A stretch of 32,000 nt of DNA, taken from positions 1,260,001-1,292,000 of the forward strand of contig NZ_CP065936.1 in NCBI RefSeq assembly GCF_003367075.2, in the 5' to 3' direction. Made by a program: the position numbers and the translations under genes. This document shows positions 1-22,346 of this stretch, piece after piece (the first letter of the stretch is position 1; every line of letters starts with the position of its first letter). Below the pieces are notes generated by a model that worked only from the letters and a program-made list of their open reading frames with translations, was not told where the DNA came from and searched no databases. The stretch comes from Cylindrospermopsis raciborskii Cr2010 (GTDB lineage: Bacteria; Cyanobacteriota; Cyanobacteriia; Cyanobacteriales; Nostocaceae).

Positions 1-405
1 TACCTTCTAGCCTTATTATTAGGAGTGAACTTAAATCATAGCTTTGTATCCTTACTACAAGTTATCCTAGTTGTTTTCTTGGGTGCTGGTTGTTTTTGCG
101 CCTTCTCCTTGATTATTGGCTGCCTAGTTAGATCAAGAGAAAGATTTACTGGTATTGGACAATTGATTACCATGCCATTATTTTTTGCTAGTAACGCCAT
201 ATACCCAATTTCCCTAATGCCCGATTGGTTAAAAATAATTTCCCACCTCAATCCCCTCACCTACCAGGTAGATGCTTTACGGGGAATCATGGTAGTCAAC
301 GGAACCACCAATTATGGACTTGAGTTAGATTGCGCAGTTCTTCTGTTAACATTAATAGGCTTAACCTTTATTTGTGGAAGACTTTATCCACGAGTAGTCA
401 TGTAA
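1..405 (+). CDS. ABC-2 type transporter permease, C-terminal portion (5' end outside window)
   Basis: Frame 1 is open from base 1, so the listed ORF 25..405 is only the part after an internal start. The product is a multi-pass hydrophobic protein with an NAIYPISLMPDWLKIISHLNPLTYQVDALRG segment typical of ABC-2 exporters. Family assigned from memory. Confidence 0.7.
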   Translation, partial: YLLALLLGVNLNHSFVSLLQVILVVFLGAGCFCAFSLIIGCLVRSRERFTGIGQLITMPLFFASNAIYPISLMPDWLKIISHLNPLTYQVDALRGIMVVNGTTNYGLELDCAVLLLTLIGLTFICGRLYPRVVM

Positions 406-423
406 CCAGGAGAAAAACATCCT

Positions 424-879
424 ATGTCCTTCGATAAACCCCCCCAAAAATGTGCAGCTAGGGTAATGGAAACCATTCCCCTATTAATGCGGTTTATTCG
501 AAGTGACATGCGTAATCATAGTGCTGATTCCCTCACCATTCCCCAACTGCGATCGCTCGCCTTTCTCAAACGTAACCCGGGAACTTCCCTTTCCGCAGTA
601 GCAGAGCATCTTGGTGTTACCTGTGCCACAGCTTCCACAACCATCGAAAGACTGGTACAACGCCATCTGGTACAAAGAACAGATCACCCCCAGGAAAGAA
701 GAAAAATAGTATTAAATCTCACCACACAAGGAAAATCCCTCTTAGAAGAATCTCAGGAAAAAACTCGCCTTCATATTGCCGAAATTATTGAGAGCCTAAC
801 CTCGGAAGAACTATTACAAATTGAAACAAGTCTTACTTTGCTAAAAAATGTCTTTGAAAAAACCGAATCTAACCACTGA
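424..879 (+). CDS. MarR family transcriptional regulator
   Basis: 151 aa with a winged-HTH core (LTIPQLRSLAFLKRNPGTSLSAVAEHLGVTCATASTTIERLVQRHLVQRTDHPQERRKIVLNLT). It sits between transporter genes. Confidence 0.85.
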   Translation: MSFDKPPQKCAARVMETIPLLMRFIRSDMRNHSADSLTIPQLRSLAFLKRNPGTSLSAVAEHLGVTCATASTTIERLVQRHLVQRTDHPQERRKIVLNLTTQGKSLLEESQEKTRLHIAEIIESLTSEELLQIETSLTLLKNVFEKTESNH

Positions 880-2089
880 CCATAGTAGCATCCATGACCC
901 ATTTGCTGCGCTAAGATTTAGAGACTACCGATTATTTACCATAGGAAGGATTCTGTTATTTACAGGTAACCAAATGCAAACAGTAGCCCTAGGTTGGGAA
1001 CTGTATGAACGTACCAACTCCCCTCTAGCCCTAGGTATAGTAGGACTGGCACAAGTATTACCAGTTATATTATTAACCTTAATAGCTGGACACGTAGCGG
1101 ACAAATATAATCGTCAACGCACCACTGTAGTAGCTAGCCTCCTTTTAGCTCTTTGTTCATTGGGATTAGGCATAATCTCTTATACACAGGCACCAGTATT
1201 TTTGATTTATATTTGCCTAGTCCTTACTGGTATAGCCAGAGCCTTCCTCAAACCTGCCAGCGATGCCATGATGTGGCAATTAATACCTCCACAAGTATTT
1301 ACTAATGCTGCCACCTGGGTAAGTGGTAGCTTTCAACTAGCATCAGTAATTGGACCAGCTCTAGGTGGATTTGTTATTGCCATTTTTAATAGTGCCACCC
1401 AGGTGTATATACTCACATCAATTGCATCCCTATCATTTCTAATAGCTGTAGTAGCTATGAACCCACCAGAAGGAAATCTCAGTAAAGAGCCAATATCCCT
1501 GAGATCCTTAGCAGCGGGGGCAGAATTCATTTGGAAGAATCAAATTATATTAGCTGCTATTACACTAGATCTATTTGCTGTTTTATTTGGTGGTGCAGTA
1601 GCACTATTGCCAATATATGCCAAAGACATTTTAAAAGTAGGTCCAGTAGAACTCGGATATTTACAAGCAGCACCGGCCATAGGAGCATTAATTATGGGCG
1701 CGGTGCTGATACAACTTCCACCCATTACTAAAACCTGGTCTACCCTACTATGGTCGGTTTTTGGTTTTGGGGTCACAACCATTATTTTTGGCCTATCCAA
1801 ATGGATGTGGTTATCCCTGCTCATGTTAGCTCTTGGTGGAGGATTAGATACTATTAGCGTAGTCATTCGCCACACCTTAGTACAACTAAAAACCCCGGAA
1901 GAATTAAGAGGTCGTGTGGCAGCCATTAATACAGTATTTATAACTGCATCAAATGAACTAGGAGCTTTTGAATCTGGACTAGTAGCTGCTCTAGTAGGAC
2001 CCATACTTTGCGTAGTTGGTGGAGGAATAGGTACAATTTTAGTAGTTTTAGCAACTATGGTAATTTGGCCCGAACTAAACAAAACATAA
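848..2089 (+). CDS. MFS transporter
   Basis: 413 aa with about 12 predicted hydrophobic helices and a GHVADKYNRQR loop motif between TM2 and TM3. It overlaps the MarR stop by 32 nt. Confidence 0.85.
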   Translation: MSLKKPNLTTDHSSIHDPFAALRFRDYRLFTIGRILLFTGNQMQTVALGWELYERTNSPLALGIVGLAQVLPVILLTLIAGHVADKYNRQRTTVVASLLLALCSLGLGIISYTQAPVFLIYICLVLTGIARAFLKPASDAMMWQLIPPQVFTNAATWVSGSFQLASVIGPALGGFVIAIFNSATQVYILTSIASLSFLIAVVAMNPPEGNLSKEPISLRSLAAGAEFIWKNQIILAAITLDLFAVLFGGAVALLPIYAKDILKVGPVELGYLQAAPAIGALIMGAVLIQLPPITKTWSTLLWSVFGFGVTTIIFGLSKWMWLSLLMLALGGGLDTISVVIRHTLVQLKTPEELRGRVAAINTVFITASNELGAFESGLVAALVGPILCVVGGGIGTILVVLATMVIWPELNKT

Positions 2090-2103
2090 GAGAGAGGATA
2101 ATC

Positions 2104-3390
2104 ATGACCCTTTGGCTAAAAACAAAGATATACCAGCATTTACCAGCATTTAAATCCCGAAACTTTCGACTTTTCTTTACAGGACAAACCATGTCCTTGT
2201 CAGGAACATTCATGACCCAGGTGACAATTTCTTGGGTAATCTATGACTTGACCAAATCCTCTTGGTTACTTGGGTTAACAGGATTTTTACAATTTTTGCC
2301 CACCGTACTCCTCACCCCATTTTCAGGAGTATTATGCGATCGCTGGAATCAGAAAAAGCTGCTCATACTGGTACAGATTTTAGGCCTAATGGTTTCCACC
2401 ACCTTGACCACACTGACATTTTTAGGATTGATAAAAGTTTGGTTGCTAATAACAGTAGCCATTTTAGGAGGAATGTTAAAAGGTTTAGACATGCCTGTTC
2501 GTTATGCAATAGTGATTAATACCGTAGACGAACGTAACCACTTAGGAAATGCGATCGCCCTTTATTCTGCCATGTTGAGCAGTTCCCTATTAATTGGACC
2601 AGCTGTGGGTGGGATATTGCTGGCCAGCGTAGGAGCCAAATATTGTTTTTTATACGACAGTATAAGTTATATCATTGCCCTGATAACATTAGGTGCGATG
2701 AAACTGCGACCAAAGATAGTAGTAAAGGGGGGAAAGACCGCAAACACCTGGAAAAAATTACAAGAAGGATGGGAATACGTTTTTAAAAATCTAGCAATTC
2801 GGTCAATTCTAATATTATTAACCTTTCATGGTTTAGTAGGTATTTCCTACATGGCAATCCTCCCCGTATTTGCGGGATATATTCTTCAGGGTGATGGGGG
2901 TACAATGGGAATGTTGAGTGCAGCGAGTTCCATAGGTTCCCTCATGGCTTGTGTCTATTTAAGTTTGCGCCGTGAGGTATTAGGATTAGAGAAATTAATG
3001 GCCAGTTGTCCAATCGCTATTGGGTTTGGACTAATAGCCTTTGGTTTATCCAAAACGACCTGGCTATCATTATTAGTTTTAACAGTTATTGGTGGTAGTG
3101 GTATGTTGCAGGTTTCCTGTGGCAATACAATTATTCAAACACTAGTAGAAGATGATAAACGGGGTAGGGTAATGAGTTTATACTCCTTAGCCATAATTGG
3201 CACTTTACCCCTAGGTAACTTGATTGTTGGCAGTTTAGCACAAAACATAGGTGCCCCAAACACAGTTATTGGATGTGGCATTTTTTGTTTGTTAGAATCA
3301 ATCTGGTTCAATCAACAATTACCTCTGCTTAGAGGTAAAATAAGAGAAACTTTAATTTTGTCTACTTCCACCTTAGAAACTGGAGCTTAG
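2104..3390 (+). CDS. MFS transporter (paralogous type)
   Basis: The ORF track starts at 2008, but that stretch overlaps the upstream MFS gene. The ATG at 2104 (MTLWLKTKIYQHLPAFKSRNFRLFFTGQ) gives a typical MFS N-terminus. A GVLCDRWNQKK loop motif is present. Confidence 0.85.
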   Translation: MTLWLKTKIYQHLPAFKSRNFRLFFTGQTMSLSGTFMTQVTISWVIYDLTKSSWLLGLTGFLQFLPTVLLTPFSGVLCDRWNQKKLLILVQILGLMVSTTLTTLTFLGLIKVWLLITVAILGGMLKGLDMPVRYAIVINTVDERNHLGNAIALYSAMLSSSLLIGPAVGGILLASVGAKYCFLYDSISYIIALITLGAMKLRPKIVVKGGKTANTWKKLQEGWEYVFKNLAIRSILILLTFHGLVGISYMAILPVFAGYILQGDGGTMGMLSAASSIGSLMACVYLSLRREVLGLEKLMASCPIAIGFGLIAFGLSKTTWLSLLVLTVIGGSGMLQVSCGNTIIQTLVEDDKRGRVMSLYSLAIIGTLPLGNLIVGSLAQNIGAPNTVIGCGIFCLLESIWFNQQLPLLRGKIRETLILSTSTLETGA

Positions 3391-3402
3391 CAATCTTGTA
3401 GG
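3368..3402 (+). repeat. 35-bp direct repeat, copy 1 (includes the last codons and stop of the MFS gene)
   Basis: CCACCTTAGAAACTGGAGCTTAGCAATCTTGTAGG is identical, base for base, to 5667-5701. Confidence 0.95.
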
Positions 3403-3486
3403 GTCTCTCCTTTTTGCTAGATGCTAGGCTAGATGTGAGGTGTTTGAGTGAATTTGCAGTACATGTACTTACCCATTTAATTAATT

Positions 3487-4932
3487 ATGAAAGTGGCAAT
3501 TTCTAACTTAGGCAATATTCAAAAAGCAGAAATCGAATTAAGTCCGTTCACAGTATTTATTGGTAGAAGTGGTACTGGTAAAAGTTGGACTGCTTATACA
3601 ATAGCTTCTATAGTGAGTAACTATGGTTTTAAGTCTTATCTACAAATATATGAGGACAAAATTAAACGGGAACAGTATAATTTAGAATATGATGTTTTGG
3701 AAGAAAGTATTCAGGAGTTTTTAGAATCGGGCAGTTGTCAGATAAATCTGGTCAACTTTGCACAGAAGTTTGCAGAAAAGTATGTTAATGATCTTGCTAA
3801 AATGTCCCCTAATTGGTTATCAAAATTTCTGGGAACATCCAGGCTAAATTTTAATAATCTGGAAGTTAAATTTTCTATTAATGAATTAAAACAAGACTTA
3901 GTAACCAGAATCAGGCAAATTTCATTTCAGCAAGAGATGAACTATGGGAACCAAGGGTTGAAAGTTTTTAAGCAACAGGATGAAGAAGAGATATATTTTT
4001 ATCAGGTTTACGAGGGTAATAGAGATAGTTTAAAAGATAGCTTAAAACTTCCTCCATTACTAATCAGAGACTTATTTTTAAAAACTATACTGGGAATAAT
4101 CCATGAATGTTTCTATGCTGATGTTCATATCTTTCCCACTGAAAGAACAGCATATATAGGATTTCCTTTTTCTGTGAATTTAAGCAAGCTGATGGAGCTA
4201 GAAATGGAGAAGACAATTTCACCAGAGGAACAAAAACCTATCATGGAAAACCTCATGAAATTCAAAAGATCAAAAAGATCGAGAAGTGGTATTATTGACA
4301 GTCTAACATCTGTCATAGCAAGTGCTGTAATAAAAACAGATCAAGAGAGAGATGAAGAAGCAGAAAAAGACCCACAGATAAAAAAATATATCGACTTGGC
4401 GAATTTTTTACAAGAAAATATTCTGTCTGGCCATGTTAAGTTTAATTCATCACCATTGGTAAATGAAATTATTTTTGAGCCAATCCCAGACGTGAAATTA
4501 GAAATGCACATTACCTCATCTATGATTAAAGAATTGACACCTCTGTACTTGTGCTTACGTTACTTGGCAAAACCTAATGAATTATTAGTGATTGATGAAC
4601 CGGAAATGAATTTACATCCTGCAGCACAGGTGGAAATTACCGAGTTTTTGGCTATGCTGGTGAATGCAGGAATTAAAGTCCTAATTACCACTCACAGTCC
4701 CTATATAGTCAATCATATCTCTAATTTAATTAAAGCTGCCAACTATGAGAACAAAGATACCATAAAAGAAAAATTTTATTTGGAAAGAACCGATGCTTTT
4801 ATTGCACAGAAAAATGTTTCAATATATTTATTTGAAGATGGAACAGCCAAAAACATATTGCATGAAAATGGGCAAATAGACTGGGATACTTTTGCCGATG
4901 TTTCTGACGATGTCGGTCATATTTTGTTCTAG
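3487..4932 (+). CDS. ABC/SMC-type (AAA_15/AAA_21-like) ATPase with no fused nuclease domain
   Basis: 481 aa. Walker A is FIGRSGTGKS (codons 3562-3585). Walker B is LLVIDEPEMNLHP (from 4582). An H-loop ITTHSPY and a long helical insert lie between the two lobes. This architecture resembles the ATPases of Septu, PARIS and Gabija-type systems. Confidence 0.8.
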   Translation: MKVAISNLGNIQKAEIELSPFTVFIGRSGTGKSWTAYTIASIVSNYGFKSYLQIYEDKIKREQYNLEYDVLEESIQEFLESGSCQINLVNFAQKFAEKYVNDLAKMSPNWLSKFLGTSRLNFNNLEVKFSINELKQDLVTRIRQISFQQEMNYGNQGLKVFKQQDEEEIYFYQVYEGNRDSLKDSLKLPPLLIRDLFLKTILGIIHECFYADVHIFPTERTAYIGFPFSVNLSKLMELEMEKTISPEEQKPIMENLMKFKRSKRSRSGIIDSLTSVIASAVIKTDQERDEEAEKDPQIKKYIDLANFLQENILSGHVKFNSSPLVNEIIFEPIPDVKLEMHITSSMIKELTPLYLCLRYLAKPNELLVIDEPEMNLHPAAQVEITEFLAMLVNAGIKVLITTHSPYIVNHISNLIKAANYENKDTIKEKFYLERTDAFIAQKNVSIYLFEDGTAKNILHENGQIDWDTFADVSDDVGHILF

Positions 4933-4980
4933 TTATATTTTAGTAAAAGCGTTATTTTATTAGAAAGGTGTAATTTCCAG

Positions 4981-5523
4981 ATGCTTTTTGACTATTTACT
5001 ATTATCAGGTTGTTTACTGCCAAATAGATATAGCTATTCAGAAAATGGAGTTAAGATAGAATTGCAACCCCAGAGTGGCGAGTTAATTTTGTTGTTTCAT
5101 ATAGATGATCAATCAAATAGAGATTGTAAATTCAGAAGAGTTTTGGAATTGGATAATCAGGGTATGAAAATGTGTGATTTGATAGTATTTTACGCTAAGG
5201 ATTCAACAAGAAATATATGTTTTATAGAATTAAAAGGTAGAGATATTGAAACCGCAATACAGCAGATAAATAATACATACAAGTACTTTCATGCCAAGCT
5301 AAATCAATCCAATGCATGTAATCTAGTGCCAGAGGTTAATACCAAAGCTTGTATTGTATCCAGAGCTTGTGTGCCAATAAAACCCCTAGATTCCTATACA
5401 TCATATAAAGAATTGAAATATAACTTTGGAAAGGAAAACATTTCTATTAGTAAGTCTTCAAGTTTAGATAGGTTTTTACGAGGTTTAAATTATGAACCTA
5501 AAGGTAAAAAAAATAGGAAATAA
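4981..5523 (+). CDS. Hypothetical protein, possible PD-(D/E)xK-fold nuclease
   Basis: 180 aa, 48 nt downstream of the ATPase on the same strand. It carries D66 (5176-5178) followed by a beta-strand-like ICFIELKG with E83-x-K85 (5227-5235). The spacing fits the D..(D/E)xK restriction-endonuclease core. The fold is inferred, not verified. Confidence 0.55.
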   Translation: MLFDYLLLSGCLLPNRYSYSENGVKIELQPQSGELILLFHIDDQSNRDCKFRRVLELDNQGMKMCDLIVFYAKDSTRNICFIELKGRDIETAIQQINNTYKYFHAKLNQSNACNLVPEVNTKACIVSRACVPIKPLDSYTSYKELKYNFGKENISISKSSSLDRFLRGLNYEPKGKKNRK

Positions 5524-5666
5524 TCAAAGCCTATTTAAACAAAATATGTAAAATATAGCGATATGCGATTGAATGAGATACAAGCTGACGTGGTAAGCAG
5601 ACGAGTTAACTAGAAAATTGGAATCTGGTCCCAAATACATCTCTTAGCAATAGAATATACTTTAAA

Positions 5667-5701
5667 ACCACCTTAGAAACTGGAGCTTAGCAATCTTGTA
5701 G
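5667..5701 (+). repeat. 35-bp direct repeat, copy 2
   Basis: Identical to 3368-3402. It continues directly into the hairpin repeat at 5697-5724. Confidence 0.95.
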
Positions 5702-5724
5702 GTTGGGTTGAGGGACGAAACCCA
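5697..5724 (+). repeat. Small dispersed hairpin repeat (GTAGGTTGGGTTGAG..CGAAACCCAAC family)
   Basis: GTTGGGTT / AACCCAAC forms the stem. Related copies lie at 22314-22346 (+) and, degenerate and inverted, at 7326-7350. Confidence 0.6.
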
Positions 5725-5859
5725 ACAAACTCCAATGTGGACTACAAGCAATTCACCAATGTCGCAGATTGGATTGAGGACCAACCATCTGGGATGATTA
5801 TATGATTATAGGTGTAGACTTCTCTTAGGTTTTGGAACCACACTTGGGTAATTAGAACT

Positions 5860-6447
5860 CTAAATCTCATAGTACCAAATATCTTCTTGATGGACAATAA
5901 TTCGATTAAGAGATTTTCTCTCAATGACTTTTTCCTGTTCTAATTGTCCTAGTAAGCGGGTGACAGTAACCCGAGTAGAACTGATCAACCCAGCCAAATC
6001 TTCATGAGTTAACCGCATATCAATTAAACGTCCTTGTTCTACCTGAGAACCGAATTTTCTCGACAACCACACTAATAATTGAATTAACATTGTTTCGACC
6101 TTTTTATTACCGCGAATTACCATTAATTCCTCTGCTTGCTCAATGTGCTTAAGCCAATCAGTTTTTGATTGATTCCAGTCCTGGGCAAATACCAAGCTTG
6201 CTTCTACGTTAGTTAAACATTGTGCTTGATAAGGTTTTATTCTTGTCAGGGACTGACCGACTATATCCCCCGCACCCCATAACCCCAGTGCTATCATTGT
6301 TCCATCTTCCAAATATGTATTAGTCATAACAAAACCGCTATTTATTTGCCAAAGATGACTATTATCTAATGGTAAAAGCGATCGCCGAGTAAAGTACCTT
6401 TGATGATCGTTAGCAGATAATTGACTTAAATCTGTAGATGATGGCAT
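5860..6447 (-). CDS. Crp/Fnr family transcriptional regulator
   Basis: 195 aa with an N-terminal cNMP-binding-like beta-roll and a C-terminal HTH (LTHEDLAGLISSTRVTVTRLLGQLEQEKVI). Confidence 0.85.
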   Translation of the reverse strand: MPSSTDLSQLSANDHQRYFTRRSLLPLDNSHLWQINSGFVMTNTYLEDGTMIALGLWGAGDIVGQSLTRIKPYQAQCLTNVEASLVFAQDWNQSKTDWLKHIEQAEELMVIRGNKKVETMLIQLLVWLSRKFGSQVEQGRLIDMRLTHEDLAGLISSTRVTVTRLLGQLEQEKVIERKSLNRIIVHQEDIWYYEI

Positions 6448-6547
6448 TATTACTTATATTACAATTAGTCGATTGAGTAATCGTAGTATATATTAAATTA
6501 GGATCCAAAAGATAGATTTTTAGTTTTTTTGCGCTGGGTAGACAAAA

Positions 6548-6583
6548 ATACTAAAACCCGATAGAGTTATGATATTTTAGTAT
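6548..6583. promoter_or_regulatory. Candidate operator in the Crp/Rrf2 divergent intergenic region
   Basis: A perfect 9-bp inverted repeat, ATACTAAAA (6548-6556) and TTTTAGTAT (6575-6583), sits in the 185-bp divergent promoter region. Confidence 0.25.
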
Positions 6584-6632
6584 CATCAATAAGAAAGCAA
6601 CTAGTTTCGCATAAACACCCATAGACAAATCA

Positions 6633-7115
6633 ATGAACAATAGTATTTTAAACAACGATGAAAATAGTCAAAGTTACGGACTTTTAGAACTGTCTGCCAA
6701 AGTAGAGTACGCACTGTTAGCGCTATTAGAGCTAGCTATTAATCACGGGAAGAAAGTTACTCTAACGATCAGCGACATTGCAGCCAAACAACCAATACCA
6801 GAGCGTTACTTAGAGCAGATTCTCACCCAATTACGACGTGCGGGAGTAGTGCAAAGCCAGCGGGGGTCAAAAGGGGGTTTTTTGTTGGTGCGTGAACCTT
6901 GGGAGATAAGCTTGCTAGAGATAGTTTCTTTGATAGAAGGGGAGAGGAATGAAAAGAGAAATGCCAACGTTTTGACCATAGAGAAAACCCTAGTGTGGGA
7001 AATTTGGGAGCGGGCCAACACAGCTTCAGTAGAAGTGCTAGGTCGCTACACCTTGCAGGACTTGTGTCAAGAAAGGGAAATAAGATCACAAGAAAATCCT
7101 ATGTACTATATTTAG
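6633..7115 (+). CDS. Rrf2 family transcriptional regulator (lacks the Cys ligands for an Fe-S cluster)
   Basis: 160 aa with KVEYALLALLELA..., RYLEQILTQLRRAGVVQSQRGSKGGFLL and a C-terminal MYYI. It is a clear paralogue of 25537-25986. Confidence 0.85.
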   Translation: MNNSILNNDENSQSYGLLELSAKVEYALLALLELAINHGKKVTLTISDIAAKQPIPERYLEQILTQLRRAGVVQSQRGSKGGFLLVREPWEISLLEIVSLIEGERNEKRNANVLTIEKTLVWEIWERANTASVEVLGRYTLQDLCQEREIRSQENPMYYI

Positions 7116-7325
7116 ACTATACAAAACAAGTATAATAATATATACCATAGATAAGAATAAACGTATCAATTGTTTATAAGGGCTGCAATATGATAAGGTA
7201 CGCGGGTATATTGATATCCTCAATTGGAATTAACTGCGGATCGCATCACAGTGTAATCTAGGTTGGATTTTCTCAACCCAAGGTGAGTTTAACCATGAGT
7301 TAGGGGTAATTCTTCCCGTGGGTTT

Positions 7326-7350
7326 GTTGGGTTTCGTATTAAACTCAACC
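7326..7350 (-). repeat. Degenerate inverted copy of the dispersed hairpin repeat
   Basis: The reverse complement GGTTGAGTTTAATACGAAACCCAAC resembles GGTTGGGTTGAGGGACGAAACCCAAC at 5699-5724. Confidence 0.45.
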
Positions 7351-8119: not shown

Positions 8120-10012
8120 ACCCGCTTCCCTCTGGGAAGTGGAATCAATGGAAACTTTCGGCATAAGTTGGCGATACGATGGGTATGTACCCTCACCCGC
8201 TTCCCTCTGGGAAGTGGAATCAATGGAAACCCAATTACTTTTTTTCCATGGGGAACGGTGCAAGACTAACCCGCTTCCCTCTGGGAAGTGGAATCAATGG
8301 AAACATCGAAGTTTAGTTGATCAGAGAGCAACCAAACGTGGACTCCACCAACCCGCTTCCCTCTGGGAAGTGGAATCAATGGAAACAAGACTTCGACTTC
8401 AACGAAACGGAACTTTCGTCCCTTGGACCCGCTTCCCTCTGGGAAGTGGAATCAATGGAAACGCTTAACAATTTGTGGACACAGTTTAGGTGGGGCTTTA
8501 ACCCGCTTCCCTCTGGGAAGTGGAATCAATGGAAACCGAAATAACAAGCTCTTCTTTTTTGCTAAACATAACCCCAAACCCGCTTCCCTCTGGGAAGTGG
8601 AATCAATGGAAACCTTAACACAGACCAGACTAGACTTGACTTGACTTGACAACCCGCTTCCCTCTGGGAAGTGGAATCAATGGAAACTTCAAATAGAATG
8701 TCTCTCAGTCCTGCATCTAATAAACCCGCTTCCCTCTGGGAAGTGGAATCAATGGAAACTTATTTACTACACCACTATAAAAGTGGTGGTGAAAACACCC
8801 GCTTCCCTCTGGGAAGTGGAATCAATGGAAACATAAAAAAACCACATCAGAAATTTGTTTTTGCGTCAACCCGCTTCCCTCTGGGAAGTGGAATCAATGG
8901 AAACAAAAAATTTGTCAACTACTCGTATACTGAAAATTACCCGCTTCCCTCTGGGAAGTGGAATCAATGGAAACTATTTTTTAAACTTTATTATGGAAAG
9001 GATCAGTTAGCACCCGCTTCCCTCTGGGAAGTGGAATCAATGGAAACTTTAGTTCCAGCAAAGTATGTTAGGGAACTAGTAAGCGACCCGCTTCCCTCTG
9101 GGAAGTGGAATCAATGGAAACCACCCCTACCCCTTGCTTTACCTCTTACCCTTATTTTTGACCCGCTTCCCTCTGGGAAGTGGAATCAATGGAAACTTCC
9201 CACTTTTGGGTGGGGGCCCGGTAAGTTTGTGTCACCCGCTTCCCTCTGGGAAGTGGAATCAATGGAAACAGTGATATTACAGATACATAAATTGTAGAAG
9301 CGGTTGACCCGCTTCCCTCTGGGAAGTGGAATCAATGGAAACCCCTACGGAAACTACAGGTACATAAGGACAATAGAAACCCGCTTCCCTCTGGGAAGTG
9401 GAATCAATGGAAACTTTCCTCTGCACCCGCAAGAAAGAGAAAGGAGAAAGAACCCGCTTCCCTCTGGGAAGTGGAATCAATGGAAACTCCATAGCCTTAA
9501 TCTCCTGTTAAATTCAACTTACAACCCGCTTCCCTCTGGGAAGTGGAATCAATGGAAACTTGTTTCCAGGGTACGCTCAAACTGATTACCTTTAACCCGC
9601 TTCCCTCTGGGAAGTGGAATCAATGGAAACTTCATGAACAAACAGTAAACCAGGAGTGGTTTGCTAAATTAGAAGAGGACCCGCTTCCCTCTGGGAAGTG
9701 GAATCAATGGAAACAGGTTCAGAGCGGCCTTCTTTAAGTTCTTTTAAAGCTACCCGCTTCCCTCTGGGAAGTGGAATCAATGGAAACGTGACAACCCTCT
9801 TGAGGGATGTCGGGATTGGGAGGCAGTACCCGCTTCCCTCTGGGAAGTGGAATCAATGGAAACAAAAGTCATTAATCCTGAAGACGCTAATTTACTAAAT
9901 ACCCGCTTCCCTCTGGGAAGTGGAATCAATGGAAACTCAGCATATGACTGAGTCGTATACTGACTCAGGTCAAAAAACCCGCTTCCCTCTGGGAAGTGGA
10001 ATCAATGGAAAC
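8120..10012 (+). CRISPR. CRISPR array with 26 identical 36-nt repeats and 25 spacers (34-48 nt); no cas genes in the window
   Basis: The repeat is ACCCGCTTCCCTCTGGGAAGTGGAATCAATGGAAAC, counted by hand at 8120, 8195, 8269, 8351, 8427, 8501, 8578, 8652, 8724, 8797, 8869, 8939, 9012, 9086, 9161, 9234, 9307, 9379, 9452, 9524, 9595, 9679, 9752, 9828, 9901 and 9977. An internal CTTCCC/GGGAAG hairpin is present. The 3' end ATGGAAAC resembles the 8-nt Cas6-type crRNA tag, and the A+T-rich leader lies upstream, so the array is read on the + strand. Confidence 0.97.
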
Positions 10013-10068
10013 TTTATAGGGATAGGAGTAATATATCCCAAATTGGCGTTGCATATTTGCGGGATGAA

Positions 10069-10515
10069 TCAACTAAACGCGGGTATTACTTCATACTTTA
10101 AATAGTGAAGTAATAATTTAATTGAATACCTAAGCATATCTACAGATTTTGAATAGCATAGCGTTTTTCTATGTAGTCGCGCTAAGTAGTGACGTAAACG
10201 TGTATTTTCACCCTCTACCCTAGTCATATATGTTTTGCTCACAATATGATCCTCTGGCTGAATAAAACTCGGATAAACCCTCCACCCATCAGTAACATAA
10301 AAAAAGCATTGCCAGAGTTTAACGATGTCCCACAAAGGTTGAAATGCTTGTGAGCTGTGGTCTCCCACAACCCAAGCCAGGATATTTTTACGGAAGTGAT
10401 TTACTGCTGTCCACAACCATATTTTGTTTTTTTTTGATCCCACAAAGGTCTCCAACTCATCAAGCTCACCTACCAAGGGTGTTTCCTGGTGGAGCATCTG
10501 GAAGTATGGAACCAA
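10069..10515 (-). CDS. IS1-family transposase catalytic part (InsB-like)
   Basis: ELDELETFVGSKKNKIWLWTAVN...YVTDGWRVY...TRVEGENTRLRHYLARLHRKTLCYSKS is typical of IS1 DDE transposases. It lies in the +1 frame relative to the InsA-like ORF. Confidence 0.85.
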   Translation of the reverse strand: MVPYFQMLHQETPLVGELDELETFVGSKKNKIWLWTAVNHFRKNILAWVVGDHSSQAFQPLWDIVKLWQCFFYVTDGWRVYPSFIQPEDHIVSKTYMTRVEGENTRLRHYLARLHRKTLCYSKSVDMLRYSIKLLLHYLKYEVIPAFS

Positions 10516-10756
10516 TTTGTTTTAGCCAGTAAATAATAGTTGTATGATGAACGCCTTTATCGCGTTCAATTGCTCTAAATCCCATACCGTTAACATAAGA
10601 GCGCAGGCAACTTTGTTTAACTTCTTCTGAATAGCCTTTAGGTGGACTATAGACATCGATAAATTGACGACCACAATCAACACAAATGTGATTTTGTTTA
10701 CCTCGACGTTTGCCATTCTTTCTGATTTTGGAAGACCCGCAGTTTGGACAATGCAC
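10466..10756 (-). CDS. IS1-family InsA-like Zn-finger/HTH protein
   Basis: It starts CPNCGSSKIRKNGKRRGKQNHICVDCGRQF, followed by an HTH (GMGFRAIERDKGVHHTTIIYWLKQ). The start codon is GTG. Confidence 0.85.
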   Translation of the reverse strand: MHCPNCGSSKIRKNGKRRGKQNHICVDCGRQFIDVYSPPKGYSEEVKQSCLRSYVNGMGFRAIERDKGVHHTTIIYWLKQIGSILPDAPPGNTLGR

Positions 10757-10795
10757 AGTAGATTACCTCAATTCATACCTCTATTATGCAACGCC

Positions 10796-13116
10796 TATGG
10801 GCCCACACGGTTGTTTGTCCCCATTGTCAGTCTGTTATTCCTTTAAGTCCTAATTGGTGGTTAAGTAAAACTAGTAATTATGGTGGTAAAGGACAAGCAC
10901 GAAAAGTGACTAGTGATTGGTATGCAGTAAAACCGATTGGTAATGGTGAGAATAAGCGGGTTGATTTTGAATTAATAAGGGGAAAAAAGGGGAAGGGGAC
11001 GACGATTGCAACAGATGATGGGGAATATGATCCGGATACTACAACTACTATTGGAAGGGGGGTGGGTAAGTGTGTTAATTGTGGGAATATAATTGAGGAT
11101 GATTTTATTAAAAGGCAAGCTCAAGGTGAAGGTTTAGGCTATCAATTATATGCGGTAGCTTATAAAAAGGGAAAGGGAAGTCTGGAGTTTAGAATACCAA
11201 ATGATTTAGATATTATGGGGGTGAAAAAAGCTGAAAATTACATAGAACATGAAATTGAAGACTGGAAGATTAAAGGATTTTTTCCGGATGTAGAAGTGAC
11301 AGATGGTCAAGAAACTCATAGGTTATTTGCCATGGGTATTAATGATTGGAGTAAGTTTTTTAATCCCAGGCAACTGGTGACGCTAGTAACATATTTAGAA
11401 ATTATAAATGAAGCGAAAAATCTGATTCAATCTGAATATGAATGGGAGAAATCACAAGCTATATCAACTTATTTGGCTTTGGTTTTGGATAGATGTGTTG
11501 ATGAAAACTGTAGATTAGGACGTTGGAATCCCCCCAGAGCAGGTTCTGAAGGCGCATCATCCCAACATGCACTTAACTTGATGTGGAATTATCCAGAAAG
11601 AGCTGGTGATGGTCAATTGTGGCGATCATGTGCTGATGTTTTTGCCTCAGACTATAAAAGTCTTTGTTCATTATTAGGAAAAAATGTGGGAAAGACAGAA
11701 AAGTATGATATTCCCATAGATAAGAAATCAATTCAAATAGAGTCAGCATCAGCGGATAACTTAACACATATTGCTGATAAATCAGTACATGCAATAATTA
11801 CCGACCCTCCTTATTATTCAACCATTCAATATGCGGAACTAGCAGACTTTTTCTATGTGTGGCTAAAACGCAGTCTAGGAGATATATTCCCCGAACTTTT
11901 CTATCTGGAACTAACAGATAAAGAAAGAGAAGCTGTCGCTAATCCTTCCCGGTTTAGGAATATGGGAATATCCCCAGAAATCCTAGCGAATCAAGACTAT
12001 GAGGCAAAAATGTCCATGGCTTTTGCTGAATACCACCGGGTTTTGCGTGATGATGGAGTGATGACTGTTCAATTCAATCATAAAGATTCTGGTGCTTGGG
12101 ATATTTTAGCCAAGTCTCTGATGGATGCTGGTTTTGAAATTACAGCTTCCTGGGCGGTTAGTACAGAAAATCCTCAAAATCTCCACCAGGCTCAAAAAAA
12201 TGCGGTTTCTAGCACCGTTCTATTAGTGTGTCGTAAACGTTATCCCCATGCTGAACAAGGTTGGTGGGATGATGTGCGTCTGGAATTACGTAATACTATC
12301 TTGAGTAAAGCTCCAGAAATTGAACGCTCCCTAACTGCAGATTCTAGACCTGCACCGGATAGGGTGGAAGACCCCCGTCAAAGAATTAAGCCTCCGGGTA
12401 TTGATTTATGTTTGACAGCTTATGGTAGTGCTTTAAGTGTGTTTACCCGTTATAGTTCTATATTGGATAGTACAGGAATTAAAGTAGAGCCTAAAGCAGC
12501 TTTTGAAGAAGTGCGTCAAGCTATAGTATCATACCGATTAGAAAGGTTGTTGGCGGGGAAGGATTTTCATGGGGTGGATACTTTGACTCAATGGTATATT
12601 CTGGCTTGGGATACTTTTGAAGCGCGAGAATTTCCTTTTGATGAAGCTAGACAATTGGCTTTGGCTGTGGGGGGTTTTGATGTTTCTGATTTGGTGAAAA
12701 AATATAAGTTGTTGGATTCTGCTAGTGGTTTTTGTAAGCTGTTAACTCCAGAACAAAGGTTGAAGAAACGGGCTTTTTCTGTAGTAGATAGGGAGTTTTC
12801 TGGTGTGAATTTGGTAGATGGAATTCATGCTATAATTTGCATTTATCAAATAGAACAAAAAATAGAGTTTGTCAGAAGGTTTTTAAAAAATACTGAGTTG
12901 GTGAGTATGGATGCTTTTATGAAAACTTTTGAGTTGGTTTTGAAGGTGATTCCTCAGATAAAGGATGAAAGAAAACGAATTATAGAGGAGAAGGTGTTAT
13001 TGGATTTATGGTTGGCTATGGATGAGATAAAGGCGAAGGTGTCTTATGAACAAATGGAGTTGCCATTTAATCTATCTGGAACAAGTGATGGGCCAACTCA
13101 AATACCTCTATTTTAG
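10796..13116 (+). pseudogene. DUF1156/COG1743-type Zn-ribbon DNA methyltransferase, 5'-truncated by IS1
   Basis: The reading frame begins inside the IS1 terminal repeat (ATG 10786). Native sequence starts at the Zn-ribbon (CPHC...CVNCG). The DPPY catalytic motif lies at 11803-11814 (AIITDPPYYSTIQYAELADFFYVW). The N-terminal DUF1156 and SAM-binding (motif I) region expected upstream of the ribbon is absent. Confidence 0.8.
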
Positions 13117-13211
13117 GTGTGATGGAGGTTTTTAAAAACTGTTTTGGTCTGTGGTTGGAGCTATGGGTTATTTTTTTGGGGGAGATCTATTTATAAAAGG
13201 GTTTAGGATTT

Positions 13212-15203: not shown

Positions 15204-16251
15204 CAGCAATTTTCATGTAGTTAAACTACAAAATAAGATAAGCTATAATAAGGGTAATAAACTAAAATAGAGTAGAAGTACTGTCAAATTATATGCCAAA
15301 ACCTTATTCAATAGATTTGCGTAATCGCGTGATTGTAGCATGGGTTGCTCAAGAGGGATCTCAACGCCAGTTGGCAGAAAGATTCAAGGTCAGCTTATCA
15401 TTTGTGAGAAATTTAGTACGTCGTTATCGTGAAACTGGGCAAGTTGAGCCAAAGCAATGTGGAGGATATGAAAAGCCTGTAATTGCAGGCCAATATTTAA
15501 ACATGATCAAGTCTTGGCTGGATGAGAAAAATGATTTACTACTTTCAGAATTGTGCGATCGCCTGAGAGAAACGACGGGCACTAGTGTTAGTATCACAAC
15601 CATGCATCGAGCCTTAGAAAAGTTGGGTCTACGTCATAAAAAAAAAGTCTAAATGCCAGTGAACAGGAGACTCCACGTGTTCAAGAATTAAGGCATGATT
15701 ATCGTCGTTGGGTAGATACAGTTGATATTAGAAATTTAGTGTTTTTAGATGAATCGGGGATAAATTTAGGGATGTCAAGGTTGTTTGCCAGAAGCCAAGA
15801 TGGACAAAGAGCAATTGGTAGCGTACCAGGAAACAAGGGCAAAAATATTTCTCTGATTGGGGCTTTAAATATGGATGGAATTCTGGCAGCAATGACTGTA
15901 GAGGGAAGCACAAATACAGAAGTATTTCTCACTTATGTAAATCAGGTTTTAGTACCTCAATTATGGAAAGGGGCTATTGTTGTTATGGATAATTTAAAGG
16001 TTCATTATGCCGAGCGCGTGAGATTGTCAATTGAATCAGTCGGTGCAAAAGTTAAGTTTTTACCCCCCTATTCTCCAGACTTATCTCCGATAGAATTGTG
16101 TTGGTCAAAATTAAAGCAATTTCTCCGTAGTCGGGAGGCACGAACATTAGAAGCCCTAAATGAGGCCATGACAAGTGCAGTAAATTATATTACAGCAGAG
16201 GATGCGCTTAATTGGTTCAATCATTGTGGTTTATTTACATGAAAACTGCTG
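15204..16251 (+). mobile_element. IS630-family insertion sequence (1048 bp) flanked by TA
   Basis: The terminal inverted repeats TTACAGCAATTTTCATGTAGTTAAAC (15201-15226) and GTTTATTTACATGAAAACTGCTGTAA (16229-16254) match at 23 of 26 positions. A TA dinucleotide lies on both flanks (15202-15203 and 16252-16253), which is the IS630/Tc1 target. Confidence 0.9.
15293..16242 (+). CDS. IS630-family transposase, two ORFs joined by a -1 frameshift at an A9G tract
   Basis: ORF1 (15293-15652) is the HTH part. ORF2 (listed from 15739) contains LVFLDESG...VVMDNLKVH...PYSPDLSPIELCW (DDE). Reading the -1 frame from A AAA AAA AAG (15638-15647) gives a continuous ..HKKKKSLNASEQETPRVQELRHDYRRWVDTVDIRNLVFLDESG. 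Confidence 0.9.
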
Positions 16252-22313: not shown

Positions 22314-22346
22314 GTAGGTTGGGTTGAAGTATAAAACCCATCCTAC
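22314..22346 (+). repeat. Dispersed hairpin repeat copy
   Basis: In GTAGGTTGGGTTGAAGTATAAAACCCATCCTAC, 11 of 12 stem positions pair (GTAGGTTGGGTT with AACCCATCCTAC). Confidence 0.6.

What the first reader, a model, noticed from the sequence alone, without database searches (positions are those of the whole stretch)
3368..5701. Integrase-less 2.3-kb cassette bracketed by perfect 35-bp direct repeats that regenerate the MFS gene 3' end
- CCACCTTAGAAACTGGAGCTTAGCAATCTTGTAGG occurs at 3368-3402. There it encodes the last MFS codons (..TLETGA*) plus 12 nt.
- The same 35 bp recurs, base-for-base identical, at 5667-5701. There it runs straight into a dispersed hairpin repeat that probably served as the original MFS terminator.
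- The 2264 bp between the copies (3403-5666) contain only the ATPase and the 180-aa gene. By eye this stretch is more A+T-rich than the flanks.
- This is an attL/attR-like signature of site-specific insertion at a gene 3' end, yet no recombinase lies inside. The cassette may be mobilised in trans or be a fixed remnant.
Basis: seen in the sequence. Interest (0 to 1): 0.7.

Follow-up and report, generated by a model that had tools for sequence, protein, structure and literature searches.

The report
Repeat-flanked anti-phage cassette without integrase
A 2.3-kb A+T-rich two-gene anti-phage module sits just after a transporter gene in a bloom-forming cyanobacterium (Cylindrospermopsis/Raphidiopsis), bracketed by perfect 35-bp repeats; a related environmental contig lacks it exactly at those repeats, so it is a real insertion of a familiar kind, but what inserted it is unknown.

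Summary
It brackets 2,265 bp with the lowest G+C of any same-size stretch in the window (0.32 against a median of 0.39).

One metagenome contig (L100) has the transporter gene, a single 35-mer, then TTGGGTTGAG and the Crp gene, with the cassette precisely absent.

The cargo is a nuclease-NTPase defence pair:
- an AAA_15/AAA_21 ATPase (PADLOC PD-T4-4_A, E = 9e-55);
- a 180-aa protein with a conserved D...ExK nuclease-type motif.

The same pair occurs at other loci in other cyanobacteria, without flanking repeats and with no integrase domain among the called neighbours.

Negative results:
- no recombinase in the cassette or within 10 kb in about 20 related loci;
- no terminal inverted repeats;
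- no homology beyond the 35 bp.

The best reading is a scar of site-specific integration, with the recombinase lost or acting in trans. The cassette is now spread between lineages by homologous recombination in the flanks, can be lost precisely at the repeats, and is eroded by microhomology deletions. It is a new member of a known kind (a CIME-like islet carrying defence genes). The integration mechanism is inferred, not shown.

The parts
2104..3390 (+). MFS2, the second of two tandem MFS_3-family transporter genes and the target gene. Its last 23 nt, including the stop codon, lie inside repeat copy 1.
   Evidence: Pfam MFS_3 6.7e-58 and MFS_1 1.5e-34. ORF. The identical protein is found in 12 contigs of Cylindrospermopsis raciborskii genomes and other samples.
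3368..3402 (+). Direct repeat copy 1 (attL-like): 23 nt of MFS2 coding sequence including the stop, plus 12 nt.
   Evidence: Lineages with the L100-type left flank carry a CTT slippage insertion after repeat position 30 (L108), plus a G>T change in L101-L103.
3403..5667 (+). Inserted cassette: 2,265 bp, G+C 0.322, co-oriented with MFS2.
   Evidence: Precisely absent from L100. Lowest G+C of any same-size window. No terminal inverted repeats. No Rfam match.
3403..3486 (+). 84-bp leader between the repeat and the ATPase start codon. No promoter-like site is found in it, so read-through from MFS2 is plausible.
   Evidence: the nearest promoter-like site is at 3312-3341, inside the MFS2 3' end. 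The leader contains GCTAGATGCTAGGCTAGATG, an imperfect inverted copy of repeat positions 17-29. Fold z-scores are not significant.
3487..4932 (+). ABC-type (AAA_15/AAA_21) ATPase, 481 aa: the NTPase component of a nuclease-NTPase defence pair.
   Evidence: Pfam AAA_15 1.1e-19 and AAA_21 8.7e-15. PADLOC PD-T4-4_A 9e-55 over nearly the full length, PDC-M47A 7e-44, and weaker AriA, Old, PtuA and GajA matches. A mid-region (about 4175-4279) varies by in-frame indels between strains, giving proteins of 481-498 aa.
4981..5523 (+). 180-aa partner protein, a putative PD-(D/E)xK-type nuclease effector.
   Evidence: No Pfam hit. 12 homologues were found, and every named source is cyanobacterial. In all five other contexts examined the gene lies directly downstream of an AAA_15/21 ATPase. 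D66 and K85 are invariant and E83 nearly so, in the motif CDLIVFYA...CF(V/I)ELK. AlphaFold model: pLDDT 83, pTM 0.84. The best PDB fold hits are restriction-type nucleases (Mus81, PaqCI, N.BspD6I, FokI, BamHI), but all are weak, with E >= 0.018. PADLOC PDC-M29B matches 11 of 13 family members (best 1.6e-7); PD-T4-4_B only 4 of 13 (best 0.012).
5524..5667 (+). 144-bp 3' non-coding end of the cassette. It contains CTTAGCAAT (5643-5651), a 9-nt copy of repeat positions 19-27.
   Evidence: In L108 this stretch carries a roughly 164-bp MITE-like insertion and a roughly 110-bp deletion that removes repeat copy 2.
5668..5702 (+). Direct repeat copy 2 (attR-like), identical to copy 1.
   Evidence: Its first 22 nt are lost in the widespread deletion of 5081-5689.
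5702..5726 (+). Hairpin GTTGGGTT-N9-AACCCAAC that directly follows the repeat. It is a member of a small dispersed hairpin family. In the empty site it directly follows MFS2 plus 12 nt.
   Evidence: Fold. Second copy at 22314-22340. Empty site. Not terminator-like by the scan, as no T-run follows.
5860..6447 (-). Crp-family regulator gene, the right flank, convergent with the cassette.
   Evidence: Pfam HTH_Crp_2 1.3e-13 and Crp 1.4e-9.

Best explanation
**What it is.** The interval is a small horizontally acquired genomic islet. It is a two-gene nuclease-NTPase anti-phage module:
- a PD-T4-4_A-like ABC ATPase;
- a small nuclease-like protein with a PD-(D/E)xK-type motif.

**Where it went in.** It was inserted 12 nt downstream of the MFS2 stop codon, at the foot of the hairpin that follows the gene.

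**Most likely mechanism (inferred).** Conservative site-specific recombination of the tyrosine-integrase type, between a chromosomal site and an element-borne site sharing the 35-bp segment. That segment is now duplicated as attL and attR. The recombinase is not in the cassette. Either it was lost when a larger element decayed, which is the definition of a cis-mobilizable element (CIME), or it acted in trans.

**What has happened since (shown).**
- The cassette is inherited at this one locus across the Cylindrospermopsis/Raphidiopsis clade.
- It is exchanged between lineages by homologous recombination in the flanking genes.
- It is absent exactly at the repeats in one lineage, most simply through copy 1 x copy 2 recombination.
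- In many strains it is being eroded, together with MFS2, by microhomology deletions.

**Expression (inferred).** The cassette is co-oriented with MFS2 and no promoter-like site lies in its 84-bp leader. It is probably transcribed by read-through, with copy 2 plus the hairpin now lying at the end of the cassette transcript.
For: **Insertion with duplication.**
- Perfect 35-bp repeats occur only here, with sharp edges.
- The empty allele L100 has one copy directly followed by the hairpin.
- G+C is 0.322, the lowest in the window.

**Foreign defence cargo.**
- PADLOC PD-T4-4_A gives 9e-55.
- PD-T4-4 is described as a PD-(D/E)XK nuclease plus P-loop NTPase system (bioRxiv 10.1101/2025.07.10.664194). 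It was found on an ICE-like element in E. coli (PMC9519451).
- The partner protein has a conserved D...ExK motif and its best fold hits are restriction-type nucleases.
- The same gene pair lies at unrelated loci in Anabaena, Aphanizomenon, Sphaerospermopsis and Microcoleus.

**Integrase-type signature.**
- The identity block spans the 3' end of a gene plus a few downstream bases.
- There are no inverted terminal repeats.
- The duplication is far longer than the 2-15 bp typical of transposases (established knowledge).
- The CS-505 genome of this clade is reported to encode two phage integrases elsewhere (PMC2821919).

**Spread by homologous recombination.**
- CS-505-type strains are identical to the window from 1673 to 5974, apart from a variable stretch of the ATPase gene (3652-4444).
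- Positions 1-1672 differ by about 8.5% and Crp by 2.7%.
- Contigs with the L100-type left flank are 17-18% diverged up to about position 3100, yet carry a cassette about 99% identical to the window's.

**Loss and decay.**
- The empty L100 is 99.2-99.5% identical in its left flank to the occupied L101-L103 and L108.
- Four independent deletions have 1-3 bp junction homology.
Against: - No recombinase gene lies in the cassette, and no integrase domain is recorded for any called gene within 10 kb in about 20 related loci.
- No integrase-bearing element using this site was seen.
- No attP or circular junction was found in viral contigs.
- Homologous modules elsewhere have no flanking repeats. The module is therefore not intrinsically att-bearing.
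- The repeats are not conserved as functional sites. In the L100-type lineage copy 1 has an indel and a substitution, and copy 2 is deleted in L108 and in all strains with the 5081-5689 deletion.
- The 84-bp and 144-bp non-coding ends leave no room for a recognisable integrase remnant.
- The empty site rests on a single metagenome contig.
Confidence: 0.5

Rival explanations
1. Target-site duplication without a conservative recombinase. The chromosome was opened by nicks staggered 35 nt apart, or by a break repaired by fill-in synthesis. A linear foreign fragment was ligated in and the overhangs were copied. Possible agents are illegitimate integration of transforming DNA, or an unknown integrase acting in trans. 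One candidate for the latter is a Cas1-type enzyme, whose CRISPR reaction duplicates a repeat of this size.
For: - The duplication has sharp edges and no homology extends beyond it.
- The insertion lies entirely downstream of the stop codon, so nothing needs to be 'regenerated'.
- The module has no att-like repeats at its other loci.
- A CRISPR array with 36-nt repeats lies 2.4 kb away.
Against: - The 35-mer has no similarity to the CRISPR repeat: 91% of shuffles align as well.
- There are no terminal inverted repeats, which casposons and transposons have.
- No transposase family is known to make 35-bp duplications (established knowledge).
- Cas1-Cas2 integrates short prespacers, not 2-kb DNA (established knowledge).
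Confidence: 0.15
2. Integration by general homologous recombination. A circular copy of the cassette carrying one 35-mer, for example excised from another strain, entered a cell with an empty site. It integrated by a single RecA-mediated crossover in the 35-bp homology, recreating the two repeats. Excision is the reverse reaction. No dedicated recombinase is ever needed.
For: - Presence/absence polymorphism falls exactly at the repeats.
- There is clear evidence of frequent homologous exchange at this locus.
- No recombinase is found anywhere nearby.
Against: - It explains spread and loss, but not how the first cassette came to carry the host's 35-mer.
- 35 bp is near the lower limit for efficient RecA crossover (established knowledge).
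- The observed mosaic tracts are more simply explained by double crossovers in the kilobases of flanking homology.
- No circular junction was found.
Confidence: 0.15
3. Nothing was inserted at this site. The arrangement with two 35-mers is ancestral, from a local duplication or a chance repeat. L100 is simply a deletion between the repeats, or an assembly that collapsed them.
For: - Every isolate genome retrieved carries the cassette at this site.
- The empty allele is a single metagenome contig nested among occupied relatives.
- Deletions are common at this locus.
Against: - The cassette has the lowest G+C in the window.
- Its two genes form a module found at different loci in other cyanobacteria.
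- In the five related Nostocales MFS2 loci inspected by gene table or ORF list, no such module follows the gene.
- A perfect 35-mer pair is not expected by chance: 0 of 100 shuffles.
- A deletion origin for L100 would not remove the need for an original duplication-generating insertion.
- L100 has its own SNPs beside the junction, which argues against simple repeat collapse. The k-mer sizes JGI assemblers normally use exceed 35 (own knowledge, not checked).
Confidence: 0.07

Closest known systems
[quoted passage not shown]
   Same: - Flanked by identical direct repeats, one of which includes the 3' end of the target gene.
- No recombinase or transfer genes inside.
- Cargo only.
- An allele lacking the element exactly at the repeats exists.
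   Different: - No cognate ICE, IME or prophage using the same att site was found.
- It is far smaller (2.3 kb) than typical CIMEs.
- The host is a filamentous cyanobacterium, not a Firmicute.
- Trans-mobilisation is untested.
- The repeats are decaying in some lineages.
Tyrosine-integrase islands and prophages that integrate at the 3' end of a gene and carry a replacement 3' end (for example phage 21 or e14 at icd, and tRNA-targeting islands; own knowledge)
   Same: - The identity block covers the last codons, the stop codon and a few downstream bases.
- The target gene stays intact.
- Composition is atypical.
- The empty site has a single copy of the block.
   Different: - No integrase.
- The exchange may lie wholly downstream of the stop codon.
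- No excisionase and no phage genes.
PD-T4-4 and the related PADLOC candidates PDC-M29 and PDC-M47: two-gene nuclease-NTPase anti-phage systems (PMC9519451; bioRxiv 10.1101/2025.07.10.664194)
   Same: - The ATPase matches the PD-T4-4_A profile over nearly its full length (9e-55).
- The small partner carries a D...ExK motif, as expected for a PD-(D/E)xK effector.
- In E. coli, PD-T4-4 also rides on an integrative (ICE-like) element.
   Different: - The partner protein matches PDC-M29B better than PD-T4-4_B. The latter gives only marginal hits in 4 of 13 family members.
- It is a cyanobacterial lineage, about 45-65% identical among Nostocales.
- No phage-defence phenotype has been tested.
Integron gene cassettes and CALINs (own knowledge)
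   Same: - A small, apparently promoter-less cassette in the orientation of the upstream gene, ending next to a hairpin.
- The right junction reads G|TTGGGT, which fits the GTTRRRY core.
   Different: - The left junction (GG|GTCTCT) does not fit.
- The hairpin is 25 nt with no attC architecture.
- Integron recombination does not create 35-bp duplications.
- No IntI domain is recorded among the neighbouring genes.
- There is one cassette only.

Membership tests
Site-specifically integrated genomic islet (att-flanked integrative element) | Flanked by direct repeats (attL/attR) | tested here: met
   Perfect 35-bp copies at 3368-3402 and 5668-5702, the only two in the window.
Site-specifically integrated genomic islet (att-flanked integrative element) | An unoccupied site (attB) with one repeat copy and otherwise colinear flanks | tested here: met
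   L100: window 1-3402 and 5668-7332 align with a 35-bp overlap. This is a single metagenome contig, and its reads were not checked.
Site-specifically integrated genomic islet (att-flanked integrative element) | Integration at the 3' end of a gene, leaving it intact | tested here: met
   The repeat comprises the last 23 nt of MFS2 plus 12 nt, and the MFS2 ORF is complete.
Site-specifically integrated genomic islet (att-flanked integrative element) | Atypical base composition | tested here: met
   G+C 0.322 against a median of 0.394. Only 0.2% of same-size windows are as low.
Site-specifically integrated genomic islet (att-flanked integrative element) | Encodes its own integrase or recombinase | tested here: not met
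   There are only two ORFs, and neither hits a recombinase family. No integrase or resolvase domain is recorded for any called gene within 10 kb in about 20 related loci.
Site-specifically integrated genomic islet (att-flanked integrative element) | Excised circular form or attP junction | tested here: inconclusive
   The attP-junction pattern is absent from viral contigs.
CIME (cis-mobilizable element) | Retains attL and attR but lacks integration and transfer genes | tested here: met
   Definition from PMC5704250.
CIME (cis-mobilizable element) | Derived from, or mobilised by, a related autonomous element with the same att specificity | not testable with these tools
   Whole genomes of the clade could not be scanned for the 35-mer or for integrases. 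CS-505 is reported to have two phage integrases and D9 none (PMC2821919).
PD-T4-4-type nuclease-NTPase defence system | ATPase component matches the PD-T4-4_A profile | tested here: met
   PADLOC PDLC04033: 9e-55, residues 1-455 against profile positions 1-418 of 460.
PD-T4-4-type nuclease-NTPase defence system | Adjacent PD-(D/E)xK nuclease component matching PD-T4-4_B | tested here: inconclusive
   The window protein has no PD-T4-4_B hit. Only 4 of 13 family members hit it, at E >= 0.012, whereas PDC-M29B hits 11 of 13. The D66/E83/K85 motif is conserved. The best fold hits are restriction-type nucleases, but all have E >= 0.018.
PD-T4-4-type nuclease-NTPase defence system | Protects against phage | not testable with these tools
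Integron cassette | Both cassette boundaries at G|TTRRRY, an attC hairpin, and IntI nearby | tested here: not met
   The right junction G|TTGGGT fits, but the left junction GG|GTCTCT does not. The hairpin is only 25 nt. No integrase domain is recorded among neighbouring genes.
Transposon / insertion sequence / casposon | Terminal inverted repeats, a transposase or Cas1, and a short target duplication (2-15 bp) | tested here: not met
   No inverted repeat links the two ends. No transposase or Cas1 lies in the cassette. The duplication is 35 bp. The 35-mer is unrelated to the neighbouring 36-nt CRISPR repeat.

The most novel reading that the evidence does not exclude
The cassette is a still-active, recombinase-free mobile immune cassette. 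It excises and re-inserts precisely at its 35-bp repeats. The exchange would be catalysed by a recombinase encoded elsewhere in the genome or on a visiting element, or by host recombination alone. That would let a minimal two-gene defence unit move among strains of a streamlined bloom-forming cyanobacterium as a discrete unit. Three of the four deletions at this locus end in or at a repeat copy, which would then reflect breakage at an actively processed site. An even more exotic variant, a 35-bp duplication made by a Cas1-type integrase from the adjacent CRISPR locus, is not strictly excluded. It has no positive support, and I put it at about 1-2%.
Probability: 0.15. Interest if true: 0.65.

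Novelty: new member of a known kind. Interest (0 to 1): 0.4.

Why it matters
[quoted passage not shown] This 2.3-kb islet meets two of those criteria, deviant G+C and direct repeats, and it carries immune genes.

**For population biology.** The islet is polymorphic in natural populations. Full, partly deleted and empty alleles all occur, some in near-identical backgrounds. It is therefore a compact, PCR-testable marker for how anti-phage genes are gained, exchanged and lost in toxic bloom-forming Cylindrospermopsis/Raphidiopsis.

**For mechanism.** If the repeats prove recombinationally active without a resident recombinase, this would be a simple model for trans-mobilised defence cassettes outside the well-studied Firmicute and enterobacterial systems. 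If not, it is an ordinary integration scar.

Tried and rejected
1. **Dispersed-repeat explanation.** Rejected. The 35-mer has 2 copies in the window. In every fetched locus it occurs only at this site, in 0-2 copies. It has none in viral contigs, and a 27-nt sub-pattern of it has one match in JGI metagenome contigs. Only its last 5 nt belong to the dispersed hairpin.
2. **A longer, degenerate duplication of the MFS2 3' end.** Rejected. There is no alignment beyond the 35 bp above shuffle level.
3. **Empty site among GTDB species-representative genomes, using the MFS2 protein.** This led nowhere. The nearest match outside the clade was 76% identical (Anabaena lutea), and that locus is not syntenic.
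4. **Exact attB-specific pattern in metagenomes.** No hit, because of one SNP in the flank. The 27-mer scan then found L100.
5. **Flanking repeats around homologous modules** in Anabaena, Aphanizomenon, Microcoleus, Sphaerospermopsis and one metagenome-derived contig (L110). None found.
6. **The 180-aa protein as a small recombinase.** Not supported. No recombinase family appears among the Pfam or PADLOC hits, the protein has a conserved D...ExK motif, and its best fold hits, all weak, are restriction-type nucleases.
7. **Integron cassette.** Rejected on the left junction and the hairpin size.
8. **Cas1/CRISPR-repeat-like duplication.** No sequence similarity.
9. **Structured RNA in the cassette ends.** No Rfam match at E <= 1, and fold z-scores are not significant.
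10. **Circular (attP) junction in viral contigs.** None.
11. **Module on viral contigs.** One 42%-identical fragment (L109), uninformative.

Full report
**1. The observation**

The 35-mer CCACCTTAGAAACTGGAGCTTAGCAATCTTGTAGG occurs at 3368-3402 and 5668-5702. It occurs nowhere else in the window, even with three mismatches on either strand, and none of 100 dinucleotide-preserving shuffles gave a match.

- Copy 1 is the last 23 nt of the second of two tandem MFS_3 transporter genes (MFS2, 2104-3390...S-T-L-E-T-G-A-stop) plus 12 nt.
- Copy 2 abuts the hairpin GTTGGGTT-N9-AACCCAAC (5702-5726).
- Identity ends abruptly on both sides. Local alignments of the adjoining 150 bp score no better than shuffles.
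- The interior contains only a 481-aa ORF (3487-4932) and a 180-aa ORF (4981-5523).
- Its G+C is 0.322, against 0.405 on the left, 0.386 on the right and 0.392 for the window. It is the lowest of all same-size windows.

**2. The organism and the locus in relatives**

Exact-protein look-ups place the window in the Cylindrospermopsis/Raphidiopsis raciborskii clade. ACYA01 is strain CS-505 according to PMC2821919.

In every isolate genome retrieved, the ATPase gene lies at this same locus, in the order MarR, MFS1, (MFS2), ATPase, (180-aa gene), Crp, Rrf2. No integrase, resolvase or transposase domain is recorded for any called gene within 10 kb. The exceptions are an HTH_Tnp_4 ORF and a TnpB-like fragment some 3-6 kb away.

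Several structural alleles exist:

| Allele | Loci | Repeat copies left |
|---|---|---|
| Full arrangement | L074-L079, L089 | both, perfect |
| Deletion of 5081-5689 only (most of the 180-aa gene and the first 22 nt of copy 2) | L080 | copy 1 only |
| That deletion plus deletion of 2267-3401 (most of MFS2 and all of copy 1; GGT microhomology) | L084-L086, L088, L090-L093 | none intact |
| A different MFS2 deletion (2082-3211) plus the 5081-5689 deletion | L087 | copy 1 only |

The truncated gene stumps show that these alleles are derived by deletion.

**3. The empty site**

An exact attB-specific pattern found nothing in JGI metagenomes. A 27-nt core of the repeat found one contig, L100.

- Window 1-3402 aligns to L100 5450-2058, and window 5668-7332 aligns to L100 2092-431. 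The two alignments overlap by exactly 35 bp.
- The sequence reads ...ATTTTGTCCACTT-CCACCTTAGAAACTGGAGCTTAGCAATCTTGTAGG-TTGGGTTGAGAGACGAAACCCAAC....
A single T>C change in the flank explains why the exact attB pattern missed it.

**4. Is the empty site ancestral or a precise loss?**

- L100's left flank is only about 75-88% identical to the window up to about position 3100. It is about 90% identical over the next 200 bp, and 99-100% identical over the last 100 bp of MFS2.
- Four other contigs share this divergent left flank at 99.2-99.5% identity to L100 (L101-L103 from JGI, L108 from Logan). All four are occupied.
- Their copy 1 has a CTT slippage insertion after repeat position 30. L101-L103 have an additional G>T change.
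- L108 has a roughly 164-bp MITE-like insertion in the cassette's 3' end, and a roughly 110-bp deletion that removes copy 2 and the hairpin's 5' arm.
- L108's cassette is 99.0% (ATPase) and 99.8% (180-aa gene) identical to the window's. Its Crp is 96.9% identical and its left flank 82%.

Every sampled lineage except L100 is occupied, and L100 is nested among occupied alleles. Parsimony therefore favours a precise loss by recombination between the two copies. An ancestral empty site cannot be excluded. Either way, the repeat pair and the exact single-copy junction require an original insertion that duplicated the 35 bp.

One caveat applies. L100 is a single metagenome contig, and I could not inspect its reads. 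It does carry private SNPs beside the junction.

**5. Homologous exchange**

- CS-505-type strains are identical to the window from 1673 to 5974. The only differences are 6-13 substitutions and in-frame indels, all within positions 3652-4444 of the ATPase gene.
- In the same strains, positions 1-1672 differ by about 8.5% and Crp and Rrf2 by 2-3%.
- L087 combines an L100-type left flank (99.5% identical to L100) with a window-type cassette.

The unit that has recently moved between lineages is therefore a roughly 4-kb tract. It comprises the MFS1 3' end, MFS2, the cassette and the Crp 3' end, and it moved by recombination in flanking homology. The cassette did not move on its own.

**6. The cargo**

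*The ATPase.* It has AAA_15 and AAA_21 domains. It matches the PADLOC profile PD-T4-4_A over nearly its full length (9e-55), then PDC-M47A (7e-44), and more weakly AriA, Old, PtuA and GajA.

*The 180-aa protein.*
- It has no Pfam family.
- Only 12 homologues were found, and every named source is cyanobacterial.
- In the five other genomic contexts examined, it lies immediately downstream of a homologous ATPase.
- D66 and K85 are invariant and E83 nearly so, within the motif CDLIVFYA...CF(V/I)ELK.
- An AlphaFold model is confident (pLDDT 83, pTM 0.84).
- Its best PDB fold matches are restriction-type nucleases (Mus81, PaqCI, N.BspD6I, FokI, BamHI). All are weak, with E >= 0.018.
- Family members hit PDC-M29B (11 of 13) and, marginally, PD-T4-4_B (4 of 13).

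PD-T4-4 is described as a PD-(D/E)XK nuclease plus P-loop NTPase defence system. In E. coli it was found on an ICE-like element.

The module is thus a cyanobacterial relative of PD-T4-4, PDC-M29 and PDC-M47. It is not a recombination module.

*The module elsewhere.*
- In Aphanizomenon, Sphaerospermopsis and one metagenome-derived contig (L110), the pair sits downstream of a metallophosphatase gene next to nadA (L095, L110, L111).
- In Anabaena sp. FACHB-1237 it lies between a HIT gene and glgB (L094).
- In Microcoleus it follows an aldo-keto reductase gene (L099).
- None of these loci has flanking direct repeats, and no integrase domain is recorded among their called neighbours.

**7. Mechanism**

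*Shown:*
- insertion with a 35-bp duplication 12 nt past a stop codon, at the foot of a hairpin;
- no inverted terminal repeats;
- no recombinase in cis;
- an allele that lacks the cassette exactly at the repeats;
- spread by flanking homologous recombination;
- decay by deletions with 1-3 bp junction homology.

*Inferred:* the duplication is the identity segment of a conservative site-specific recombination of the tyrosine-integrase type. That is the one well-established process that yields long identical repeats spanning a gene's 3' end without terminal inverted repeats. [quoted passage not shown] Alternatively it was mobilised in trans. CS-505 is reported to encode two phage integrases elsewhere, and D9 none.

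*Alternatives I cannot exclude:*
- a staggered-break duplication;
- a Campbell-type single crossover by general recombination on the 35-bp homology.

*Tested and not supported:* a CRISPR-integrase origin. The neighbouring array has 36-nt repeats, but they are unrelated in sequence to the 35-mer.

*Expression.* The cassette is co-oriented with MFS2. No promoter-like site lies in its 84-bp leader, and no terminator-like site lies between MFS2 and the ATPase gene. Read-through expression is plausible but untested.

**8. An oddity left open**

Three of the four independent deletions at this locus have an end in or at a repeat copy:
- 2267-3401 ends at the last base of copy 1;
- 5081-5689 ends inside copy 2;
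- the L108 deletion removes copy 2.

The left junction of the first deletion lies in a stretch (AATCCTCTTGGT) that loosely resembles the repeat's 3' end (AATCTTGTAGGGT). Short-homology slippage may therefore suffice. A fragile or enzymatically processed site is the more interesting reading.

**9. Verdict**

The object is a small att-flanked, recombinase-less islet carrying a nuclease-NTPase defence pair: a new member of a known kind.

It is of moderate interest for three reasons:
- the founding genome paper for this clade reported no region meeting genomic-island criteria;
- the alleles form a natural series of gain, exchange, precise loss and erosion;
- the question of trans-mobilisation is directly testable.

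Noticed in passing
window 8120-10014: CRISPR array of 26 identical 36-nt repeats (ACCCGCTTCCCTCTGGGAAGTGGAATCAATGGAAAC). In CS-505-type relatives, a type III-B Cmr module (Cmr2/Cas10, Cmr3, RAMP genes) lies shortly downstream of Rrf2 at this locus (L074, L076, L077). In window-type relatives the array is followed by a different gene set. Array length differs widely between strains.
   Followed up: partly
window 10069-19565: Apparent restriction-like defence locus broken by insertion sequences.
- IS1-type transposase fragment (10069-10515, minus strand).
- A 776-aa ORF with no Pfam hit, at the position where relatives have a 957-aa DUF1156 protein with faint methyltransferase-domain hits.
- An SNF2 helicase of 670 aa, against 1,062 aa in relatives.
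- IS630-like HTH_32 and DDE_3 ORFs (15293-16242).
- A DUF499 protein (16212-19565).

Together with the cassette and the CRISPR array, this makes the region a defence island.
   Followed up: partly
window 4175-4279 (inside the ATPase gene): Hypervariable stretch with in-frame indels of 3, 6, 18 and 30 nt between strains, giving ATPases of 481, 482, 483, 486 and 498 aa. The rest of the cassette is identical in these strains.
   Followed up: partly
window 1-1672 versus 1673-5974 versus 5975 onward: Sharp mosaic of divergence against CS-505-type strains: about 8.5%, about 0% and about 2.7%. A third allele class (L100, L101, L108, L087) is 17-18% diverged across MarR, MFS1 and MFS2 up to about position 3100. 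The MarR-MFS1-MFS2 block is a recombination hot zone with deeply divergent alleles.
   Followed up: partly
window 2267-3401, 2082-3211, 5081-5689; L108 5834/5835 (equivalent to window ~5602-5711): Four independent deletions with 1-3 bp junction homology remove MFS2, the 180-aa gene or repeat copy 2 in different strains. Three of the four end in or at a copy of the 35-mer. The 5081-5689 deletion has identical breakpoints on at least three different flank backgrounds, so it has spread by recombination or descent.
   Followed up: partly
L108 5621-5784: A roughly 164-bp MITE-like insertion in the cassette's 3' non-coding end. Its terminal inverted repeats are CAGAAGTGTTGAATG and CACAAGTGTTGAATC, and the target duplication is (G)ATATAGCG.
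   Followed up: no
window 5741-5764: A 24-bp segment bounded by CCAATGT repeats is present in the window but absent from L100 and L108. It is a small slippage-type indel between the hairpin and Crp.
   Followed up: no
window 22314-22340 and 5698-5724; L074, L076, L077 at ~15240-15301 (minus strand): A small dispersed hairpin family (GTAGGTTGGGTTGA...AACCCA). The copy at 22314 has a longer stem (GTAGGTTGGGTT / AACCCATCCTAC). The cassette's insertion point lies between the GTAGG and TTGGG of such an element.
   Followed up: partly
window 5643-5651 and 3422-3433: The 9-mer CTTAGCAAT from the repeat recurs 17 nt before copy 2. An imperfect inverted copy (AGATGCTAGGCT) lies 20 nt inside the left end. 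Joined as a circle, these would surround the 35-mer like recombinase-binding sites, but fold and shuffle statistics are not significant.
   Followed up: partly
L095 4954-8374, L110 2757-10109, L111 6704-9977: In Aphanizomenon, Sphaerospermopsis and the metagenome-derived contig L110, the homologous ATPase-plus-nuclease pair lies downstream of a metallophosphatase gene next to nadA. In L110 four extra minus-strand ORFs lie between the two. This is a different but recurrent locus for the same module.
   Followed up: partly
L084-L088 versus L074-L080, about 0.5-8 kb left of MarR: A block of roughly 6-7 kb is present in some strains and absent in others. It holds an alpha/beta hydrolase, an ABC exporter, an amidohydrolase, a luciferase-like oxidoreductase and an ABC-2 transporter. 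This is further evidence of ongoing deletion in these small genomes.
   Followed up: no
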